Both the position numbers and the translations under genes were made by a program. The notes beneath the pieces were generated by a model, which saw nothing but the letters and a program-made list of their open reading frames with translations, did no database searches and was not told where the DNA came from. A stretch of DNA of 64,000 nt, from positions 3,267 to 67,266 of the forward strand of contig DBFWCI010000004.1 in NCBI GenBank assembly GCA_048485235.1, read 5' to 3'. The DNA comes from Collinsella sp. (GTDB lineage Bacteria; Actinomycetota; Coriobacteriia; Coriobacteriales; Coriobacteriaceae). This document shows positions 35,371-51,952 of the stretch, in pieces; position 1 is the first letter of the stretch, and each line of letters begins with the position of its first letter.

Positions 35371-35544
35371 ACGGGGTCCTCCCGGTGTAAATCTGCTTCG
35401 TTTCGTGTAGCCATCAGGGTACCCACCAGATGTGAATCGTACGTGACATTTAACAGATACCATCAACTCATCAAGGGGGCTTGCTGTCTTTGGTGCAATA
35501 GCTTGATGCTAAACTGGATTAACGATTGCGAGGTGGTTTACGTG

Positions 35545-35763
35545 ATGTACCCGTATATGACATTCGAAGACGGTACCGAGGTCGTTCATTCTGACCTGAT
35601 AACAGATGGGGATATCGAAAAGGTTATCGTGCATTTTGAACGACCGACGGTAGAGGGCTTCGACTCCGCTCGCTGTGAGTTGCCTTCCTGTTCGTGGACT
35701 GACTGGGAAGGGCATTTTACTCAGAGTGAAAAACGAGCTTTCGAAGAGTGTTTGAGCAAATAA
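35545..35763 (+). CDS. Small hypothetical protein (72 aa) at the left edge of the AT-rich island
   Basis: Only the last 72 codons of ORF 35056-35763 lie outside the opposite-strand gene. ATG 35545 follows a GAGGTGG SD. MYPYMTFEDGTEVVHSDL.. resembles small accessory proteins from Firmicutes mobile elements (vague recollection). Confidence 0.5.
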   Translation: MYPYMTFEDGTEVVHSDLITDGDIEKVIVHFERPTVEGFDSARCELPSCSWTDWEGHFTQSEKRAFEECLSK

Positions 35764-35863
35764 TTTAGATTAGTTCGAGTTTAGTTCGAATAAAGAAGCC
35801 GAATACGATGACCTAAAGCGTATGCATTTTTAGTATTAGATGCGTATGAAATGGAGGATGTGA

Positions 35864-36145
35864 ATGGATGAGCTAATAGACTTTAAAAAACGATTTCTCA
35901 AGAATGGCGAGCTGGTTTCAATTCCAAAAAAGGAAAGCTATAAAAGAATCATGCTGCTATGGGCCGTCTCTTTCTTTGAATTAAATACAAGTTATACGGA
36001 GCTTCAGGTTAATCGTGTGCTGTCACAGCTCTATCCTGATTATGCCGTGTTGAGGCGGTACTTGGTTGATTATGGATTCCTATTAAGGGATGAGCGAGGC
36101 CTGAAATACGAGGTTAATCCTGATGTTCACGGTATTGAGAGCTAG
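35864..36145 (+). CDS. DUF2087 domain protein (stand-alone, 93 aa)
   Basis: ..IPKKESYKRIMLLWAVSFFE..YTELQVNRVLSQLYPDYAVLRRYLVDYGFLLRD matches my recollection of the DUF2087 pattern, which is usually fused to HTH regulators. Confidence 0.7.
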   Translation: MDELIDFKKRFLKNGELVSIPKKESYKRIMLLWAVSFFELNTSYTELQVNRVLSQLYPDYAVLRRYLVDYGFLLRDERGLKYEVNPDVHGIES

Positions 36146-37307
36146 CCGTCCGGTTCGGGTCCTATATATTGCTAGAGGGATAAGCGAAATAGGCAATTGG
36201 TGTGCGAATATTGCTTTGCCAATGCTGATTTACGAGGTAACTCACGATGTTTCTGCAACTGCTTTGATGGTCTGCTGCAGATTTGCCCCCTCTCTGTTTT
36301 CAGTTGCGCTCGCGCAGCTGCCTCAGAAGATGGGTATCGGGACACTGCAGGCCATGAGATTGGCAGACTTAATTCGCGCGGGATTATTCGTTTGCTATAT
36401 TTTTGTTGATAGTAAATGGAGTATGTTTGCTATTACGTGCGCGGTATCGCTTTGCCGAACGGTTGAAATGCCCTGCTTTTACTCGTTGTTAAGAGCCAAT
36501 ACGAATAGTATCAATCGCGACGTAATTAATAATTCGTTTGGGTTTCTGCAGAATTTGATGATGGTTCTGGGGCCAGTTGCCGGCGGTTTTGTTGTCGCTC
36601 AATTTGGGGCGGAGGCTGTTCTTGCATTAGACGCGCTTTCTTTTGCCGCGTCGTTCTGGTTGCTGCGAGATGTTCCGTCGGTTATCGAGGTTAATGATAA
36701 AGAGGGGATAAGCAAAAATGAAAAAAACAGGACTGCATTTAGTGATCTTAGCGCGAAGCACTTGGCAATTGGTTTCCTATTAATCGATATTTCTAGTGGC
36801 GTGGCATTCGGCTCTCTGAATTCTCTTTTGCCAGCTATAGCGCAATTGCAATTTGACTCGTCATCGATACAATACGGATTCCTTCAGAGTAGTCTTACAA
36901 TCGGACTGTTGTTCGGAAATACAATATATGGTCGTTTAATCAGTGGTTCCGATTGCGTTAAATCATATTGTTTTGTGACGTATCTTGCGCTCGGTGCGTA
37001 TCTGGCGTTTGGCTATCGCTATGCGTCTGGGATATCGTTTATTTTCCTTTTTATTGTCGGTGCCGGAAACGCCATTCAAGATGTGCTTCTCATAACATCG
37101 CTGCAGGATTTGGCGAGAGACGGATCTGAATCGATAAGCCTGTTTTCAATTAGGGAGTCTTTGCAATCGGTTGCTGTTGTTATTTCAACACTCCTTGTTT
37201 CGCTGTTCACGAGCATCGCGATGTTCTCAATTCTCGTTACAGGACTTGGTGTATTTTCAATTATGATGGTAGTTGTGTTTCAATTGAATTATTTGCGAAA
37301 GATGTGA
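36123..37307 (+). CDS. MFS transporter (efflux type)
   Basis: 394 aa, about 12 hydrophobic segments. The N-terminus ..LYIARGISEIGNWCANIALPMLIY resembles EntS/macrolide-efflux-like MFS proteins. AT-rich codon usage. Confidence 0.85.
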   Translation: MFTVLRASRPVRVLYIARGISEIGNWCANIALPMLIYEVTHDVSATALMVCCRFAPSLFSVALAQLPQKMGIGTLQAMRLADLIRAGLFVCYIFVDSKWSMFAITCAVSLCRTVEMPCFYSLLRANTNSINRDVINNSFGFLQNLMMVLGPVAGGFVVAQFGAEAVLALDALSFAASFWLLRDVPSVIEVNDKEGISKNEKNRTAFSDLSAKHLAIGFLLIDISSGVAFGSLNSLLPAIAQLQFDSSSIQYGFLQSSLTIGLLFGNTIYGRLISGSDCVKSYCFVTYLALGAYLAFGYRYASGISFIFLFIVGAGNAIQDVLLITSLQDLARDGSESISLFSIRESLQSVAVVISTLLVSLFTSIAMFSILVTGLGVFSIMMVVVFQLNYLRKM

Positions 37308-37314
37308 CGTTGAT

Positions 37315-39637
37315 ATGCCTAAAACGCTTTTAGTATTTCCCCCAGGATGGAGTCCAGTGGGGCCGTATCTTGCCTTGCCTGTTTTTGAAGTCATATCTTC
37401 AAGAGGTTGAACAATACAAAGTTGACATTGTTGACTTAAACGTGGAATTTTACGATGACCTCCTATCTTTTAGACATGTCGAAGAGTGCTGTAAAAGGTA
37501 TCGGGAATCAAAGGATTCGTTTAGTTCGAATGTTCAATTAACAATCGAGTTGATACAAAAGTCAGCACTTAATGTTGACGAAGCAAAAGATATTTTCAGA
37601 TCAAAGAGATACTTTAATCTAAAAGAAAGACAATATGCTGAAAACATTTTTAGAAATGCACTCTATATCATAAATCACGTCTCATATGGAGTTAAATACA
37701 CGTTCAACTCCATAGATCTGCCCTATGATTATTATTCGACACCAGAAATAATGAAATCGCTTGCGGATACCTTGCATAATCCGTTTATTTCCTTCTATGA
37801 AACTGCCTTTCTTAAGCGTATTCAGAGGGAAAAAATCGAGTTTATTGGGATTTCGGTGAGCGGCTGTTTCCAATTGATTTCCGCAGTTACGTTAGCGAAA
37901 CTGATTAAAGAAGAATGTCCATCTGTTAAACACGTCTCATTGGGCGGCAATTACATTACTCGTTTAGCAGATGACTGCATGAAAGAATGGCATCCCTTTT
38001 TTGAATACATTGATTCGATAATGATGTATGACGGCGAAGAGCCGCTTGCACGTCTTCTTGAGGCTCTTGACTCTGGTGATGACAATCTCGACTGTGTTCC
38101 AAACCTTTGCCATGCTAAAGGTGGAAAGATATATAAAAACCATCGGATTGAGCAAACATTTATCAACGATACAGTTCCCGATTTCGATGGCTTCGCCCTT
38201 TCTAAATACTTCATGCCTGAGTTAATATTGCCGGTTTATTCCTCTAGGCAGTGTTTTAATCATTGCGCCTTCTGCACCATTCCCGGTGCTACTGGTGGTT
38301 GTTACCGAAAGATGCCCATATCGAGAGTATTTGAAATAATGTGTCGGTTAAATGAAAAATACGGCACGAGAGTTTTCTCTTTTGTGGATGAAACATTCGA
38401 AGGCAAAAGAATGGAGCAACTCGCGGATGAAATAAACGCATCGGGAAAAACGTTTTTCTGGCATGGAGAAACGAGGTTCTCTCCAACCCTAAGTACAGAC
38501 GTTTTCAACAAGATATACCAAAGTGGATGTAGGCAGATTCAGTTTGGCCTCGAGTCATACAACCAAAGAGTTCTTGATCTAATGAAGAAGAACACGAGAG
38601 TTGATTGGATTGATCGCAATATCCATGATTGTCTCAATGCGGGTATTCCTGTTCATCTATTCTTTATGATTGGCTTTCCGACCGAAACTAAAGAAGAGGC
38701 TCTGAACACCTTAGCTTATACAGAGAATGTTTTGAATTATTCAAAACAGGTATGTGGTGTTCCATATTCCACGAGAGGATTTACGAATTTTGGTCTCGTT
38801 ATGGGGTCGGATGTTTGGAATCATCCCGATAAGTATGGTGTCTCTGTAATGCCGAAGTCCCAATATGAGGATTTGCGCCTCGAAGTGGATTATGTTTCAG
38901 GCACTGGTTTAACTTTAAATGAAGCAAAATCCTTATCTGATGAGCATCATATTGATTTTTATATGCAAGAGGTCATAAACGGTAGCGACACAATTGATTT
39001 GCCCCAGCGGCTTCATATTTCAGAGGTGACCTGGATCCTAGATTCTATTCACGCTGTCAGGTATAAGGGACATTTGACCAAAGTAAAGCGACGGCTAACT
39101 AGTCTAAATCCAGCTGATCGAATCTGGCTGGATTCCAAGACCTCTGTCGTGCTCGTTGAGCCATTTGCCTACTTCTATAATTCTGAATACCATCATGTCT
39201 ATGCTGTTTCCCAGTTGGTATACCTTAAGTTGGCCCGTTTATTGGAGGCTGATTGTAGCATTTCTCTTATCCTTGATCAGGGCGATCTCGAGCTGACAAG
39301 GGCGATAGAAGAACTGTTGCATTATGGATTGCTGAATACAAATATCGATGCCGATTATGTAATGCACGATAATGGTTTTCAATTGGTTAAAAGTTCGTTT
39401 GTGAAAGAAGTCGGACGCTCAAAAGAGGGGTTAAGAGTACTGCTGAGTTGTGCCACCCATAGAATGTGTGCGGTTAATGATTTTTCGTTCGCTTTGCTTT
39501 CGTTGTTTGAAAAGCCGATTACTAAGAACGAGGTGCGCGACATTTTGAAAAAAGAGGGACTATCGGCAAACGAGGAGCAATTAAACAAGTTGGTTGATAA
39601 TTGCATGAAAGCAGATATACTACAATTGATTAGATAG
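37315..39637 (+). CDS. Cobalamin (B12)-binding-domain radical SAM enzyme with two C-terminal PqqD/RRE-like domains; reading frame interrupted by a 1-nt shift at T5 run 37382-37386
   Basis: The ORF-track ORF 37370-39637 (TTG start) holds the CX3CX2C motif (SSRQCFNHCAFCTIP) after a Rossmann-type segment (IGISVSGCFQ..VSLGGNY). ATG 37315 in the -1 frame encodes MPKTLLVFPPGWSPVGPYLALPV, the expected first strand of the B12 domain. Removing one T joins the two frames. Confidence 0.85.
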
Positions 39638-39650
39638 AGGAGGTTTCTGC

Positions 39651-39761
39651 ATGGACGTTATTAACAAAGATCTCTTGGAGCAACTGAAAGAGTTTCAGGA
39701 AGAGGGCGTCGTGGTAGAAGTGTTCGACTTTGAGGACTACATGGATAAATTCTGCCATTAG
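39651..39761 (+). CDS. Unannotated 36-aa acidic peptide, candidate RiPP precursor
   Basis: Read manually: MDVINKDLLEQLKEFQEEGVVVEVFDFEDYMDKFCH. GAGGAGG SD 7 nt upstream, 14 nt after the rSAM stop, and a terminator follows. Confidence 0.6.
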   Translation: MDVINKDLLEQLKEFQEEGVVVEVFDFEDYMDKFCH

Positions 39762-39785
39762 TTTCGGAATTTACTCGCCTCGCTT

Positions 39786-39820
39786 AAAGGAGAAGTCGAT
39801 TATCGATTTCTCCTTTTTTA
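39786..39820 (+). terminator. Rho-independent terminator closing the island operon
   Basis: AAAGGAGAAGTCGAT-T-ATCGATTTCTCC followed by TTTTTTA. Confidence 0.8.
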
Positions 39821-39949
39821 ATTAAAGATTTTTTTGAAATACATGCTCTTAGCACAGGTTGGCCTCTCAGTAAACTGGGAGGTTGCTTTGGCTAGTTAGA
39901 GGTATGTGAACGTTCGTTAGACTGAATCTCAGGGTAGAAGGGGCCTCCA

Positions 39950-41950
39950 GTGTCCAGATCAACAAGGCAATGCTGCGTTTCGGCTAATAAGAACGATGGC
40001 TTTTTGCGTGTGGCGGCGGCGTCGCCGCAGATTCGCGTTGCCGATGTCGAGGGCAATGCCGAGGTTGCGTTGGCGGCTGTTCGCGAGGCTGCCGAGCGCG
40101 GCGTTCGTGCTCTGGTGCTGCCCGAGCTTAACTTGTGCGGCTATACCGCGGCCGATCTGTTCCATAACCGCACATTACTGCATGCCTGCGAGGCTGCTTT
40201 GGTGCATATCCTCGATGAGACTCGTGAGCTGCCGATTGTCTTTACCATCGGTCTTCCCGTTGCAGTTGCCGAGAATATCTACAACTGCGCCGCCGTGTGC
40301 TGCGCGGGTGAGCTTTTGGGCCTCACGGCCAAGAAGTATCTGCCCAACTATGGCGAGTTCTACGAGCGCCGCTGGTTTGCTCCGGCGCCCACAGATCCCG
40401 TGTGGGTTGAATTTGCCGGTCAGGGTCCGGTTCCGCTGGGTTCGGGGCTTGTCTACCGCTGCTGTGATGAGGGCGCCGAGGACCTGGTGCTGGGCGTTGA
40501 GGTCTGCGAGGACCTGTGGGTGCCGGCGCCCCCTTCGACCGAGATGGCGCTTGCCGGTGCGACGGTGATCCTCAACCCGTCGGCCTCGGACGAGATTATC
40601 GGTAAGGCAGACTATCGCCGCAGCCTCATCTCCAATCAGAGTGCGCGCCTGTACTGTGCCTATGCCTATGCGGACGCGAGCGAGGGCGAGTCCACGACCG
40701 ATATGGTCTTTGCGGGCGAGAACCTCGTCTACGAAAACGGCTCTAAGCTGGCGGCGACGAAGCTCCTTACCTGCGATATGGCGGTTGCCGATGTTGACCT
40801 CGACCGTCTGGTTGCCGAGCGCCGTCGCTCGACGACGTGGACGCGCGCGGACGATGCGCCGGAGGCCACAACCGTTGAATTTTCGTTTGAGGGCGTGCTG
40901 GCAGACGAGCCTGTCCTGCGCGATGCACTCGACATTTACCGTGTCTTCCCCCGCGCGCCCTTTGTGCCGGCTGACCATGGCGACCTGGCCGAGCGTTGCG
41001 AGACGATCCTCAATCTGCAGACTGCGGGCCTCAAGACCCGCCTTGCCCATACGGGTACCAAGGCTGCGGTCATCGGCCTTTCGGGTGGCTTGGACTCCAC
41101 GCTGGCGCTGCTTGTGACCGTGCGTGCCTTCGATGCTCTGGGGCTTCCGCGCACGGGTATCACGGCGGTCTCCATGCCCGGCTTTGGCACGACGCATCGC
41201 ACCAAGTCGAATGCCGAGTCGCTCGCTCGCGACCTTGGCGTGAGCTTCCGTGAGGTTTCGATCCACGCGGCTGTGGAACAGCACTTCAAGGACATTGAGC
41301 ACGATTCGGCCGTGCAGGACGTGACCTACGAGAACAGCCAGGCCCGCGAGCGTACGCAGATTCTGATGGACCTGGCCAACCAGGCTGGTGGTTTTGTCAT
41401 TGGCACGGGCGACCTGTCGGAGCTGGCGCTCGGCTGGGCTACCTATAACGGCGACCACATGAGTATGTATGCCGTCAATGCGAGCGTGCCCAAGACGCTT
41501 GTGCGCCATCTGGTGCGCTATGCCGCCGATGTCTTTGGCGGGCGCATTGCCGAGGTCTTGCTCGACATCCTCGATACGCCGGTGTCCCCTGAGCTTCTGC
41601 CGCCCACGGGCGACGGCGAGATTGCGCAGAAGACTGAGGATTTGGTGGGCCCGTACGAGTTGCACGACTACTTCCTCTACTACCTGCTGCGTTTTGGCTT
41701 TGAGCCGGGCAAGATCTACCGCATGGCGCTCAAGAGCTTCGAGGGCGTCTACGACGCCAAGACCGTCCACACGTGGCTACGTACGTTCTACCGTCGCTTC
41801 TTTGCCCAGCAGTTTAAGCGCAGCTGCCTGCCCGATGGCCCCAAGGTGGGCTCGGTGACGCTCAGCCCGCGCGGCGATTGGCGTATGCCGAGTGACGCTA
41901 GCTCGCGTCTGTGGCTTTCGCAGATCGACGCGCTCAATCCAGTTGACTAA
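39950..41950 (+). CDS. nadE: Glutamine-dependent NAD+ synthetase
   Basis: 666 aa. N-terminal nitrilase/CN-hydrolase domain (VLPELNLCGY), C-terminal NAD synthetase domain (VIGLSGGLDSTLAL). Confidence 0.92.
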   Translation: MSRSTRQCCVSANKNDGFLRVAAASPQIRVADVEGNAEVALAAVREAAERGVRALVLPELNLCGYTAADLFHNRTLLHACEAALVHILDETRELPIVFTIGLPVAVAENIYNCAAVCCAGELLGLTAKKYLPNYGEFYERRWFAPAPTDPVWVEFAGQGPVPLGSGLVYRCCDEGAEDLVLGVEVCEDLWVPAPPSTEMALAGATVILNPSASDEIIGKADYRRSLISNQSARLYCAYAYADASEGESTTDMVFAGENLVYENGSKLAATKLLTCDMAVADVDLDRLVAERRRSTTWTRADDAPEATTVEFSFEGVLADEPVLRDALDIYRVFPRAPFVPADHGDLAERCETILNLQTAGLKTRLAHTGTKAAVIGLSGGLDSTLALLVTVRAFDALGLPRTGITAVSMPGFGTTHRTKSNAESLARDLGVSFREVSIHAAVEQHFKDIEHDSAVQDVTYENSQARERTQILMDLANQAGGFVIGTGDLSELALGWATYNGDHMSMYAVNASVPKTLVRHLVRYAADVFGGRIAEVLLDILDTPVSPELLPPTGDGEIAQKTEDLVGPYELHDYFLYYLLRFGFEPGKIYRMALKSFEGVYDAKTVHTWLRTFYRRFFAQQFKRSCLPDGPKVGSVTLSPRGDWRMPSDASSRLWLSQIDALNPVD

Positions 41951-51639: not shown

Positions 51640-51805
51640 TGTCCGGATAGCGCTCCCGCATTGCTGCAGACAGTCCTGTGGGTGTTTCCCACAGGCCCAC
51701 CAGGTTGTTCGTGCCCGTAAAACCCAGTTCGGCGGGTTTCGCCTCCCCACGGGGTCAAAGCCTGCCGGCTCGCCCGCGGCTCTTCGTGCCCGCGCCTCTA
51801 TCAAG
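51640..51805 (-). promoter_or_regulatory. Lysine riboswitch (L-box) in the leader of the lysA-dapA/dapB/dapH operon
   Basis: The minus-strand read contains GATAGAGGCGC..., GGGGAGGCGAAACCCGCCGAAC, CCTGGTGGG, GGACTGTC and closing GGGAGCGCTATC, in the order and spacing of L-box conserved cores (compare B. subtilis lysC leader AGAGGUGC / GGGGAGCGUCGCCGAAG / GCUGG / GGCUGUCA). Confidence 0.85.
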
Positions 51806-51952
51806 TGGTAAAGACCCTATCACGTTGCACTTTACCAAACAAGAGTATTCGTATATAACGTTTAAAAAATGCAGGGATATGCTGGAAACATGTGCGCCAC
51901 AATCCTGTATCACAATAAGTTGCAACAGATGTGCCTCACGAAGGGATCCTCT

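What the first reader, a model, noticed from the sequence alone, without database searches (positions are those of the whole stretch)
39651..39761. Unannotated 36-aa ORF MDVINKDLLEQLKEFQEEGVVVEVFDFEDYMDKFCH as candidate precursor peptide
Seen in the sequence: the ORF is below the 60-aa track cutoff. It has a near-ideal SD (GAGGAGG, 7-nt spacer) and sits between the rSAM stop and a rho-independent terminator. The first 24 or so residues are helical and acidic (leader-like: DLLEQLKEFQEEG). The last 12 (FDFEDYMDKFCH) are aromatic-rich, with a single Cys next to the C-terminal His, which is core-like. Inference: the leader is recognised by the fused RRE-like domains and the C-terminal aromatic/Cys segment is the modification site. 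I cannot match it to known precursor families (streptide, ranthipeptide, sactipeptide, Nif11, NHLP).
Basis: partly seen in the sequence, partly recalled or inferred. Interest (0 to 1): 0.75.

Follow-up and report, generated by a model that had tools for sequence, protein, structure and literature searches.

The report
Conserved precursor peptide of B12-radical-SAM cassette
The 36-codon ORF is a real, selected gene that very probably encodes the substrate peptide of the neighbouring vitamin-B12-type radical SAM enzyme, defining an uncharacterised modified-peptide family found in gut Collinsella, Lactococcus lactis and Fusobacterium; in this genome the enzyme gene carries a frameshift.

Summary
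ORF 39651-39761 (+) encodes MDVINKDLLEQLKEFQEEGVVVEVFDFEDYMDKFCH. It has a GAGGAGG Shine-Dalgarno 7 nt upstream, lies 13 nt after the rSAM stop, and is followed by a 14-bp hairpin with a T-run.

It is the last gene of a 4.3-kb low-GC island (GC 0.40 against 0.61 in the flanks) in a Collinsella chromosome. The island carries DUF2087, an MFS exporter, an rSAM and the peptide.

The rSAM is a cobalamin-type (class B) enzyme, not a SPASM enzyme, and ends in two PqqD/RRE-like domains.

In all 13 divergent rSAM lineages I examined (34-68% identity; Clostridia, Lactococcus, Fusobacterium), a 32-40-aa ORF with a strong SD follows the rSAM directly. Twelve of these share a leader motif (E-x-L-x-x-L-K-E) and a C-terminal [K/Q]-[Y/F] dipeptide.

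Against three orthologues, the last 14 codons show 5-8 synonymous and 0 nonsynonymous changes. The leader shows 8-12 nonsynonymous changes.

K33-F34 is.

My best reading is a RiPP precursor, bound through its leader by the RRE and modified at K33-F34. Beta-C-methylation, as by ApyD, is the most likely chemistry, but this is inferred only.

One caveat applies to this window: its rSAM has a +1 frameshift (T5 instead of T4 at 37382-37386).

The parts
35864..36145 (+). DUF2087-only protein (93 aa). First gene of the low-GC cassette and a putative regulator or modulator.
   Evidence: Pfam PF09860, E=4.6e-20. A DUF2087 gene, alone or fused to HTH/GerE, is present in 8 of the related loci. BtmL, the DUF2087 protein of the bottromycin cluster, modulates precursor gene expression (PMC7113386).
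36123..37307 (+). MFS transporter (394 aa, MFS_3/EntS-like). Putative exporter of the product. It overlaps the DUF2087 gene by 23 nt.
   Evidence: Pfam MFS_1 E=7e-16 and MFS_3 E=6e-12; NCBIfam TIGR00900 and EntS, both below cutoff. An MFS_3 gene sits next to the rSAM and peptide in every complete related locus.
37315..39637 (+). Class B (cobalamin-type) radical SAM enzyme with two C-terminal RRE-like domains. It is 773 aa when intact. Here it is split by a +1 frameshift into 37315-37410 (31 codons) and 37370-39637 (755 codons from a TTG).
   Evidence: Pfam Radical_SAM E=1e-17. The best NCBIfam hits are all B12-rSAM families: TIGR03975 115 bits, PhpK 107, ApyD 85. The AF2 model has pLDDT 92. 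The top Foldseek hits are OxsB, TsrM, MgmA, CysS and TokK.
37382..37386 (+). T5 homopolymer. One extra T relative to the T4 in intact alleles causes the frameshift in the rSAM gene.
   Evidence: Window CCTGTTTTTGAAG against CCTGTTTTGAAG in 144 of 146 other Collinsella loci. Only L144 and L145 share T5.
38252..38275 (+). CX3CX2C motif (CFNHCAFC) for the radical SAM [4Fe-4S] cluster.
   Evidence: Translation. The three Cys are invariant or nearly invariant in alignments A1 and A2.
39071..39358 (+). RRE-like domain 1 (residues about 572-667 in P0001 numbering).
   Evidence: The AF2 model shows a beta-strands-plus-three-helices module. hhalign against domain 2 gives probability 88%, E=2.9e-6. There is no direct PDB sequence hit.
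39359..39634 (+). RRE-like (PqqD-like) domain 2 (residues about 668-759).
   Evidence: The domain profile hits the lasso-peptide RREs TbiB1 (E=1.4e-3) and TfuB1 (E=4e-3). Eight of 34 aligned homologous domains hit Pfam PqqD, best E=9e-9. The AF2 domain model has pLDDT 91. Its top Foldseek hits are the TigE RRE, TbiB1 with leader, TglI, PqqD, TfuB1, CteB, TbtB and MibB, with TM 0.55-0.71.
39594..39621 (+). Promoter-like site (TTGATA-16-TATACT) inside the 3' end of the rSAM gene. It could be an internal promoter for the peptide gene. This is speculative.
   Evidence: Consensus scan, 10 of 12 matches. The number of such sites in the region is not above the shuffled expectation.
39637..39643 (+). 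Shine-Dalgarno sequence GAGGAGG, 7 nt before the ATG.
   Evidence: All 12 family peptides have GGAGG-type SDs 5-9 nt upstream.
39651..39716 (+). Leader region of the precursor (residues 1-22, MDVINKDLLEQLKEFQEEGVVV). The boundary is approximate.
   Evidence: The family-wide motif E-x-L-x-x-L-K-E...E-x-V aligns here. Substitutions are tolerated: 8-12 nonsynonymous codons against orthologues.
39717..39761 (+). Core region (residues 23-36, EVFDFEDYMDKFCH) plus the stop codon. K33-F34 (39747-39752) is the family-conserved [K/Q]-[Y/F] dipeptide.
   Evidence: The core is identical in orthologues whose rSAMs are only 59-68% identical. It shows 5-8 synonymous and 0 nonsynonymous codon changes. The [K/Q]-[Y/F] dipeptide near the C-terminus is found in 12 of 13 lineages and in P0176.
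39786..39822 (+). Intrinsic terminator-like hairpin (14-bp stem) plus T-run, marking the end of the operon.
   Evidence: sequence.

Best explanation
ORF 39651-39761 encodes the precursor (substrate) peptide of a minimal four-gene RiPP cassette: DUF2087 modulator, MFS exporter, class B radical SAM enzyme and precursor. An ancestor of this Collinsella lineage acquired the cassette horizontally from a low-GC bacterium.

Proposed mechanism:
1. The amphipathic acidic N-terminal part (about residues 1-22, motif E-x-L-x-x-L-K-E) acts as a leader. It is bound by one or both PqqD/RRE-like domains at the C-terminus of the rSAM.
2. This places the invariant C-terminal core (EVFDFEDYMDKFCH) in the active site.
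3. The cobalamin/[4Fe-4S] enzyme modifies the family-conserved [K/Q]-[Y/F] dipeptide (K33-F34).
4. The most likely chemistry is methylation of an unactivated carbon, for example C-beta of Phe34. This is by analogy with ApyD, an RRE-containing B12-rSAM that beta-methylates the penultimate Tyr of its precursor.
5. The product, after trimming by a protease not encoded in the cassette, is exported by the MFS.

What is shown: the gene is real, conserved, under purifying selection and strictly linked to this rSAM family; the enzyme has a class B fold; RRE-like domains are present.

What is inferred: leader-RRE binding, the site and type of modification, export, and cobalamin use.

In this particular window the rSAM gene is frameshifted, so the pathway is probably inactive here unless the T-run is read through by slippage.
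For: Gene reality and linkage:
- The ORF, SD and terminator are confirmed.
- The ORF is intact in 80 of 80 Collinsella genome loci.
- A 32-40-aa ORF with a GGAGG-type SD lies immediately 3' of the rSAM homologue in 13 of 13 lineages examined: L081, L082, L083/84, L085/86, L092, L087, L088, L093, L089, L090, L091, L147 and L174.

Selection:
- The core is identical in L081, L082 and L174 although the rSAMs are 59-68% identical.
- Core codons show 5-8 synonymous and 0 nonsynonymous changes. Leader codons show 8-12 nonsynonymous changes.

Family motifs:
- The leader motif E-x-L-x-x-L-K-E and the C-terminal [T/M/V/D]-[K/Q]-[Y/F]-x motif both align across the family.

Enzyme:
- It has the CX3CX2C motif.
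- Its best NCBIfam hits are RiPP C-methyltransferase TIGR03975 (E=3e-33), PhpK and ApyD.
- In the Foldseek search, cobalamin-dependent rSAMs (OxsB, TsrM, MgmA, CysS, TokK) and the related AprD4 fill the first 17 rows, followed by MiaB.

Precedents:
- ApyD is an RRE-containing B12-rSAM that makes beta-methyl-Tyr next to the C-terminus (PMC10635010).
- B12-rSAM beta-methylation is also known in polytheonamides, bottromycins and clavusporins, the last in a cluster with an MFS transporter (PMC10849626).
- A DUF2087 modulator occurs in the bottromycin cluster (PMC7113386).

Operon structure:
- The genes overlap or are separated by at most 13 nt, with a single terminator.
Against: - There is no experimental evidence of translation, binding or modification.
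- The cassette has no protease and the peptide has no recognisable cleavage motif.
- The enzyme scores far below the curated cutoffs of every characterised B12-rSAM family: 115 against 282 for TIGR03975, and 85 against 750 for ApyD. The chemistry therefore cannot be transferred by homology.
- Some enzymes of this fold do not methylate. AprD4 is a diol dehydratase, BchE is a cyclase, and the biphenomycin enzyme forms a cross-link.
- The Pfam B12-binding hit in the window protein is sub-threshold, 17 against 32 bits.
- One distant lineage (L147) has a peptide without the [K/Q]-[Y/F] motif.
- The window's rSAM is frameshifted, and roughly a quarter of Collinsella loci have shortened rSAM ORFs. 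This hints at relaxed selection on the enzyme in this genus.
Confidence: 0.75

Rival explanations
1. The peptide is the rSAM substrate, but the enzyme forms a cross-link or ring rather than adding a methyl group. Candidates are a bond between the K/Q side chain and the Y/F ring, between Tyr30 and Phe34, or, in this clade only, a Cys35 thioether.
For: The two adjacent conserved residues [K/Q]-[Y/F] resemble donor-acceptor pairs of known rSAM cross-links such as Lys-Trp and Arg-Tyr in streptococcal RaS-RiPPs (PMC13361665). A B12-rSAM is assigned cross-linking in biphenomycin-type clusters (PMC12257519). BchE and OxsB show non-methylating chemistry in this fold. The window's clade has a second conserved aromatic, in DY-x-x-K-[YF].
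Against: Most characterised RiPP B12-rSAMs are C-methyltransferases. The known Lys-Trp and Arg-Tyr cross-linkers and thioether formers are SPASM or twitch enzymes, and this protein has no such domain. Cys is replaced by Ser, Ala or Val in other lineages, so a Cys thioether cannot be the family's chemistry.
Confidence: 0.2
2. The peptide is a scaffold from which a small molecule is made, as with PQQ, mycofactocin or pearlins. The conserved [K/Q]-[Y/F] is modified and then excised, and a small metabolite or signal is what the EntS-like MFS exports.
For: Only two or three C-terminal residues are conserved family-wide. The RRE is PqqD-like. From general knowledge, PqqA (Glu...Tyr) and MftA (Val-Tyr) are small acidic peptides with a conserved C-terminal Tyr. 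The transporter resembles small-molecule exporters, with an EntS hit. An M29 aminopeptidase lies directly downstream in L083/L084.
Against: Within the window's clade all 14 C-terminal residues are invariant with no nonsynonymous changes. This argues that a longer peptide is functional. No peptidase or further tailoring enzyme is conserved in the cassette. PqqE and MftC are SPASM enzymes, unlike this one.
Confidence: 0.1
3. The ORF encodes a small protein that is not the rSAM substrate, for example a regulatory peptide or pheromone sensed by the DUF2087 or Rgg regulators, or an accessory subunit of the enzyme.
For: Rgg regulators flank the Lactococcus and Bacilli loci, and Rgg systems respond to small peptides (PMC13361665). 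No modification has been shown.
Against: Rgg pheromones (SHPs) are short hydrophobic peptides (PMC13361665, abstract), whereas these peptides are acidic and hydrophilic. Most loci have no Rgg. The strict position directly 3' of an rSAM that carries two RRE domains, and the leader/core conservation pattern, are what a RiPP precursor predicts.
Confidence: 0.04
4. The ORF is a chance open frame in an AT-rich intergenic spacer.
For: It is only 36 codons long and lies in 40% GC DNA, where short ORFs are common.
Against: The frame, SD and position are conserved across lineages with 34-68% rSAM identity. The core has only synonymous substitutions. The other frames and the antisense ORF are not conserved.
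Confidence: 0.01

Closest known systems
Aminopyruvatide ApyA/ApyD (Burkholderia thailandensis)
   Same: ApyD is an RRE-containing cobalamin-dependent rSAM acting on a short precursor. It modifies an aromatic residue next to the C-terminus, making (2S,3R)-beta-methyl-Tyr at the penultimate position (PMC10635010). The NCBIfam ApyD model gives the third-best hit to the window enzyme.
   Different: The score is 85 bits against a cutoff of 750, so the window enzyme is not an ApyD orthologue. The apy cluster also has MNIO, P450 and SAM-methyltransferase genes. The precursors are unrelated (GYLYD against ...DKFCH). The window enzyme has two RRE-like domains at its C-terminus.
Bottromycin (btm/bot) cluster
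   Same: It combines B12-rSAM C-methyltransferases, an MFS transporter and a DUF2087 protein (BtmL) that modulates precursor expression (PMC7113386; PMC10849626). From general knowledge, one bottromycin rSAM beta-methylates Phe.
   Different: The bottromycin cluster is much larger, with YcaO enzymes, hydrolases and a P450. Its precursor has a follower peptide rather than a leader. It is actinobacterial, and the precursors share no sequence similarity.
Clavusporin mpc operon (MpcB/MpcC)
   Same: It is a compact operon with an MFS transporter, a B12-rSAM and a short precursor, and performs beta-C-methylation (PMC10849626).
   Different: MpcB has a CX7CX2C motif and a separate DUF5825 partner, and the operon encodes an S9 peptidase. 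The window enzyme has the canonical CX3CX2C motif and fused RREs, and the cassette has no peptidase.
TIGR03975 rSAM_ocin_1 (RiPP maturation radical SAM C-methyltransferases)
   Same: This is the best-scoring curated family for the enzyme, E=2.8e-33 over residues 72-501.
   Different: The score is 115 bits against a cutoff of 282. Neither Pfam nor NCBIfam assigns the peptide to any precursor family. By NCBIfam's own criterion the enzyme is not a member.
Streptococcal Rgg-associated RaS-RiPPs (streptide and the 16 subfamilies)
   Same: These are short precursors next to an rSAM and a transporter. The Lactococcus and Bacilli members of the present family sit next to an Rgg regulator.
   Different: Those enzymes are SPASM or twitch rSAMs. 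[quoted passage not shown]
PqqA/PqqD/PqqE and mycofactocin MftA/B/C
   Same: Both use a PqqD-type RRE that presents a small acidic peptide with a conserved C-terminal Tyr to an rSAM (RRE fold; the rest from general knowledge).
   Different: Their rSAMs are SPASM enzymes. Their products are intracellular redox cofactors and they have no exporter. The precursors share no sequence similarity.

Membership tests
RiPP precursor peptide (generic definition) | Short ORF co-located and co-oriented with its modifying enzyme across taxa | tested here: met
   The ORF lies directly 3' of the rSAM in 13 of 13 lineages and in 80 of 80 Collinsella genome loci.
RiPP precursor peptide (generic definition) | Bipartite leader/core organisation with a recognition motif and a conserved modification motif | tested here: met
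   The leader motif E-x-L-x-x-L-K-E and the C-terminal [K/Q]-[Y/F] both align. The core has 0 nonsynonymous changes against 8-12 in the leader.
RiPP precursor peptide (generic definition) | Enzyme-dependent post-translational modification of the peptide | not testable with these tools
   This needs co-expression and mass spectrometry.
RRE (PqqD-like RiPP recognition element) in the enzyme | Winged-helix module of a three-stranded sheet plus three helices, similar to PqqD or lasso B1 proteins | tested here: met
   Domain 2: PDB profile hits to TbiB1 and TfuB1; Pfam PqqD in 8 of 34 homologous domains; Foldseek top hits are RREs with TM 0.55-0.71. Domain 1: hhalign to domain 2 gives probability 88%.
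RRE (PqqD-like RiPP recognition element) in the enzyme | Binds the leader peptide | not testable with these tools
Class B (cobalamin-dependent) radical SAM enzymes | CX3CX2C radical SAM motif | tested here: met
   CFNHCAFC is present, and the Cys are conserved in 43 of 44 aligned homologues.
Class B (cobalamin-dependent) radical SAM enzymes | N-terminal Rossmann-like cobalamin-binding domain preceding the rSAM barrel | tested here: inconclusive
   In the Foldseek search, OxsB, TsrM, MgmA, CysS and TokK (with AprD4) fill the first 17 rows, aligned over 410-530 columns. PF02310 is found in many homologues. In the window protein the Pfam hit is sub-threshold, 17.2 against 32.1 bits. AprD4, which has the same fold, is not a methylase. 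Actual cobalamin binding was not tested.
TIGR03975 rSAM_ocin_1 RiPP C-methyltransferase | Score at or above the curated NCBIfam cutoff (281.85 bits) | tested here: not met
   115.3 bits.
ApyD (NF050148) | Score at or above the curated cutoff (750 bits) | tested here: not met
   84.8 bits.
SPASM/twitch rSAM RiPP systems (streptide, sactipeptide, ranthipeptide) | C-terminal auxiliary Fe-S (SPASM/twitch) domain in the rSAM | tested here: not met
   There is no SPASM hit in Pfam or NCBIfam. The C-terminal 190 residues fold as two RRE-like modules.
Nif11 / NHLP leader peptide families | Match of the peptide to the curated leader models | tested here: not met
   The peptide has no Pfam hit at E<=10. 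Its only NCBIfam hit at E<=1 is a chance-level match to VcpD, 13.7 bits against a cutoff of 90.
Streptococcal Rgg/RaS-RiPP subfamilies | Core motif belongs to one of the 16 named subfamilies | tested here: not met
   The list in PMC13361665 contains no [K/Q]-[Y/F] or DKFCH-type motif.

The most novel reading that the evidence does not exclude
The family's class B radical SAM enzyme does not simply methylate. Instead it performs a so far undescribed transformation of the invariant adjacent [Lys/Gln]-[Tyr/Phe] pair, either a side-chain-to-ring cross-link or excision into a small aromatic metabolite. The exported product would be a new type of signal or antimicrobial made by abundant gut, oral and dairy bacteria (Collinsella, Fusobacterium nucleatum, Dorea, Lactococcus lactis).
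Probability: 0.25. Interest if true: 0.8.

Novelty: new variant of a known kind. Interest (0 to 1): 0.62.

Why it matters
Collinsella is one of the most prevalent human gut genera. The rSAM cluster alone has more than 12,000 member sequences in public assemblies. The same cassette type occurs in Lactococcus lactis, Fusobacterium nucleatum, Dorea and Hungatella. In this window the peptide fell below the 60-aa ORF cutoff and so went unlisted, and where a source names a family peptide (the Lactococcus one) it is called only a hypothetical protein. As a result the cassette's nature as a peptide-modification system is invisible in annotation.

The system is minimal and therefore experimentally tractable: one enzyme with a built-in RRE, one peptide and one exporter. 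It could show what a class B radical SAM enzyme does to a conserved Lys/Gln-Tyr/Phe motif. It could also give access to a microbiome-derived modified peptide of unknown activity.

The repeated frameshifts in Collinsella alleles raise a further question: whether the trait is being lost or is phase-variable.

Tried and rejected
- **Co-folding the RRE domains with the peptide.** I submitted them as a linker-fused construct.
- **Searching with the peptide alone.** An alignment led by a 40-aa member worked, but it found only variants of lineages I already had.
- **Profile search of the peptide against 1.84 billion representatives.** It returned 11 clusters and one new member, P0176. The family is either small or rarely called by gene finders.
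- **Genome and metagenome scans with the rSAM.** Both were swamped by near-identical Collinsella loci. The diversity came from exact-protein look-ups instead.
- **Full-length Foldseek search.** It showed only the catalytic fold, so the RRE needed a separate domain model.
- **RRE domain 1 against PDB sequences.** No significant hit. Only profile-profile similarity to domain 2 supports it.
- **Rfam scan of the island.** There is no cobalamin riboswitch or other RNA family.
- **Search for flanking repeats or integration scars around the island.** Nothing convincing.
- **Plasmid database.** No DNA match to the island and only a distant Rhizobium rSAM.
- **Literature searches.** Searches for this family (Collinsella/rSAM/RiPP; Lactococcus/Rgg/B12; B12-rSAM/RRE; DUF2087/rSAM) found no description of it.
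- **Cys35/His36 as the family-wide modification site.** I considered this and rejected it, because these residues are not conserved outside the window's clade.
Full report
**Observation.** The window has an ATG-initiated 36-codon ORF at 39651-39761 (+) encoding MDVINKDLLEQLKEFQEEGVVVEVFDFEDYMDKFCH. GAGGAGG lies at 39637-39643, 7 nt before the ATG. The upstream rSAM ORF stops at 39635-39637. A 14-bp hairpin followed by a T-run lies at 39786-39822. Neither Pfam nor NCBIfam recognises the peptide.

**Setting.** The ORF is the last of four tightly packed, co-oriented genes:
- a DUF2087-only protein (35864-36145);
- an MFS_3/EntS-like transporter (36123-37307);
- a large radical SAM protein (37315-39637);
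- the peptide.

A single terminator follows them. The block is a low-GC island, about 0.40 GC against about 0.61 in the flanks. The host is Collinsella: the rSAM was found at 99-100% identity in 80 Collinsella or C. aerofaciens genome loci.

A more distant Coriobacteriia contig (L174) carries the cassette at the same chromosomal site, upstream of the NAD synthase, aminotransferase and LDH genes. Its rSAM is 68% identical, and the island GC is 0.42 against 0.64-0.66 in the flanks. The acquisition therefore predates the split between this lineage and L174, and the cassette has been inherited vertically since. Relatives sit next to a relaxase and coupling protein (L082) and on a Paraclostridium plasmid (L090), which fits a mobile origin.

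**The enzyme.** Besides PF04055, the protein's best NCBIfam hits are all cobalamin-dependent rSAM families: TIGR03975 RiPP C-methyltransferase at 115 bits, PhpK at 107, ApyD at 85 and HpnJ at 85. All are far below their curated cutoffs.
- An AlphaFold model built on 44 homologues has pLDDT 92.
- In the Foldseek search, the cobalamin-dependent rSAMs OxsB, TsrM, MgmA, CysS and TokK, together with AprD4, fill the first 17 rows.
- The CX3CX2C motif is canonical.
- There is no SPASM or twitch domain.

Instead, the last 190 residues or so form two beta-sheet-plus-three-helix modules.
- The distal module (residues 668-759) matches the lasso-peptide RREs TbiB1 and TfuB1 by profile search.
- Its counterpart in 8 of 34 homologues hits Pfam PqqD.
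- Its separate model (pLDDT 91) retrieves RREs as the leading Foldseek hits: TigE, TbiB1 with leader, TglI, PqqD, TfuB1, CteB, TbtB and MibB.
- The proximal module is homologous to the distal one (hhalign probability 88%) but has no direct PDB sequence hit.

**Comparative evidence for the peptide.** I retrieved the genomic context of rSAM homologues spanning 34-68% identity. In every lineage, a 32-40-aa ORF with a GGAGG-type SD 5-9 nt upstream follows the rSAM directly.

| Locus | Source | Peptide |
|---|---|---|
| L081 | metagenome contig, organism not identified | MLPIDLEIIEKLKETCEEGVKIEVFDFEDYMDKFCH |
| L082 | metagenome contig, organism not identified | MDSIDFEILEKLKETCEEGVQIEVFDFEDYMDKFCH |
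| L174 | Coriobacteriia | MDVISRDLLEKLKDSQKEGVKIEVFDFEDYMDKFCH |
| L083 | rSAM P0015, 45% identical | MTPEMIKDLQNFSQEGVHAEIMENLDYVTKYVDLTK |
| L085 | rSAM P0017, 45% identical | MDKQLLEKLKELEEKEIIAESLENQDYVMKYAT |
| L092 | rSAM P0019, 44% identical | MEKELIERLKELEAQDIFAENLENEDYVVKYST |
| L087 | Desulfosporosinus | ...SKEILKQLQEEALTKEVTAEVFDTCSNSTQYV |
| L088 | L. lactis | MDFEKIKSLAEVMEVQSTKDSAQAVDSEMNTKYC |
| L093 | Bacilli | MDFEKIKELSKNMEVKSTKESTRAVESEVNTKFV |
| L089 | F. nucleatum | MKKLILIEIKKLSEKEGVEVKNCDLGSSLTTKYA |
| L090 | Paraclostridium | MSQSKLNKLKNYKEKTIKFDKNIVSQSTTQYCLK |
| L091 | Dorea | MLELLQEIKEMVNEEIKFDVMANQSVNDAMNTTQYSP |

A database member, P0176, ends in NTTKYCP. The alignment shows a shared N-terminal motif (E-x-L-x-x-L-K-E ... 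E-x-V) and a shared C-terminal [T/M/V/D]-[K/Q]-[Y/F]-x motif. Only one distant lineage, L147, has a peptide with the leader motif but a different C-terminus. All complete loci also encode an MFS_3 transporter. The regulators vary between DUF2087, with or without an HTH, and Rgg.

**Selection.** Between the window and L081, L082 and L174, the last 14 codons carry 5, 8 and 6 synonymous differences and no nonsynonymous ones. The first 22 codons carry 12, 10 and 8 nonsynonymous differences. The antisense ORF and the other frames are not conserved. This settles that the ORF is a translated, selected gene and that its C-terminal segment is the most constrained part.

**Mechanism.** The parts fit the standard RiPP logic:
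1. The leader is bound by an RRE.
2. The core is delivered to the radical SAM active site.
3. The product is exported by the MFS.

These steps are inferred from anatomy and none was tested.

The site of chemistry is most plausibly the only family-wide core feature, the adjacent [K/Q]-[Y/F] pair (K33-F34 here). Tyr and Phe are interchangeable, so the phenol oxygen is not needed.

The closest functional precedent is ApyD, an RRE-containing B12-rSAM that converts the penultimate Tyr of its precursor into beta-methyl-Tyr (PMC10635010). Beta-C-methylation by B12-rSAMs is also the rule in polytheonamides, bottromycins and clavusporins (PMC10849626). I therefore put about 45% on C-methylation at or next to Phe34. 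I put about 20% on a cross-link; a B12-rSAM is implicated in the biphenomycin cross-link (PMC12257519). I put about 10% on processing into a small excised metabolite.

**Caveats specific to this window.**
- The rSAM gene has one extra T in a T-run (T5 at 37382-37386, against T4 in 144 of 146 other Collinsella loci; L144 and L145 share T5).
- This separates the conserved N-terminal 22 residues (MPKTLLVFPPGWSPVGPYLALP) from the rest of the protein.
- Of 138 Collinsella loci that cover the whole region, 89 have the intact 773-aa ORF and 13 have a 759-aa ORF. About 30 have shorter ORFs.
- Deletion alleles that fuse the MFS to the rSAM also exist (P0002-P0007).
- L174's rSAM is split at a T7 run.

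Some of these disruptions may be assembly errors. The pattern nonetheless suggests decay or phase variation of the enzyme gene, while the peptide ORF stays intact.

**Comparison with known systems.** The enzyme fails the curated thresholds of TIGR03975 and ApyD. The peptide matches no Nif11, NHLP or other curated leader family. The system lacks the SPASM domain that defines streptide-, sacti- and ranthipeptide-type maturases. Its motif is not among the 16 streptococcal RaS-RiPP subfamilies (PMC13361665). Seven literature searches found no description of this family.

It works like an ApyD-type or bottromycin-type B12-rSAM RiPP step, but it is a member of no defined family. I therefore class it as a new variant of a known kind.

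Noticed in passing
window 37382-37386 (rSAM gene 37315-39637): The window has a +1 frameshift in a T-run (T5 instead of T4). This detaches the conserved N-terminal 22 residues of the rSAM from the rest. The same T5 allele occurs in two metagenome loci (L144, L145), so it is probably a real lineage allele rather than a read error.
   Followed up: yes
Collinsella loci L001-L080 and L095-L173; proteins P0002-P0009, P0012: About 30 of 138 Collinsella loci have shortened rSAM ORFs through frameshift or nonsense changes. Some alleles carry a deletion that fuses the MFS to the rSAM (1053 aa). The peptide ORF stays intact in these loci. This could reflect gene decay, phase variation at homopolymers, or assembly error.
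   Followed up: partly
window about 35500-39950; L174 3800-7800: The four-gene cassette is a low-GC island (0.40-0.42 against 0.61-0.66 in the flanks). It sits at the same chromosomal site in two Coriobacteriia lineages whose rSAMs are only 68% identical. This points to an old horizontal acquisition from a low-GC bacterium. No flanking repeats or integrase were found.
   Followed up: partly
L061 8294-8404: One Collinsella MAG has a core variant, EELDYEDNKHKFCH, produced by six nucleotide changes clustered within 24 nt, five of them T-to-A. It keeps the KFCH end. It could be a real diversified core or a MAG artefact.
   Followed up: no
P0038 (Lactococcus lactis rSAM, locus L088 5001-7259): The most common L. 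lactis allele has Ser in place of the middle Cys of the CX3CX2C motif (CVNKSTFC). Relatives P0036 and P0047 keep the Cys. The widespread L. lactis enzyme may be unable to bind the radical SAM cluster.
   Followed up: no
window 51640-51808 (-): A lysine riboswitch (Rfam RF00168, 76.5 bits) lies here. It is unrelated to the finding.
   Followed up: no
window 35770-35789: A tandem direct repeat, TTAGTTCGA (35770-35778 and 35781-35789), lies in the AT-rich region upstream of the DUF2087 gene. It could be an operator or promoter element of the cassette.
   Followed up: no
L083 6331-7572; L084 7663-8904: An M29 aminopeptidase gene lies directly downstream of the precursor in the lineage whose rSAM (P0015) is 45% identical. 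It is a candidate leader-trimming enzyme that the Collinsella cassette lacks.
   Followed up: no
L147 4652-4750: A distant rSAM relative (804 aa) is followed by MEQKILDALKKETDNTIDIDGYDDNTSHKDKE. This peptide has the family leader motif but no C-terminal [K/Q]-[Y/F], so core chemistry may differ between subfamilies.
   Followed up: no
L082 6322-9124; L090 (plasmid CP161001.1): Relatives of the cassette sit next to a relaxase and a T4SS coupling protein, and on a 137-kb Paraclostridium plasmid with a Rep3 gene. Both fit horizontal mobility.
   Followed up: partly
window 39594-39621: A sigma-70-like promoter match (TTGATA-16-TATACT) lies inside the 3' end of the rSAM gene, just upstream of the peptide's SD. 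It might raise precursor transcription relative to the enzyme. The number of such sites in the region is not above the shuffled expectation.
   Followed up: no
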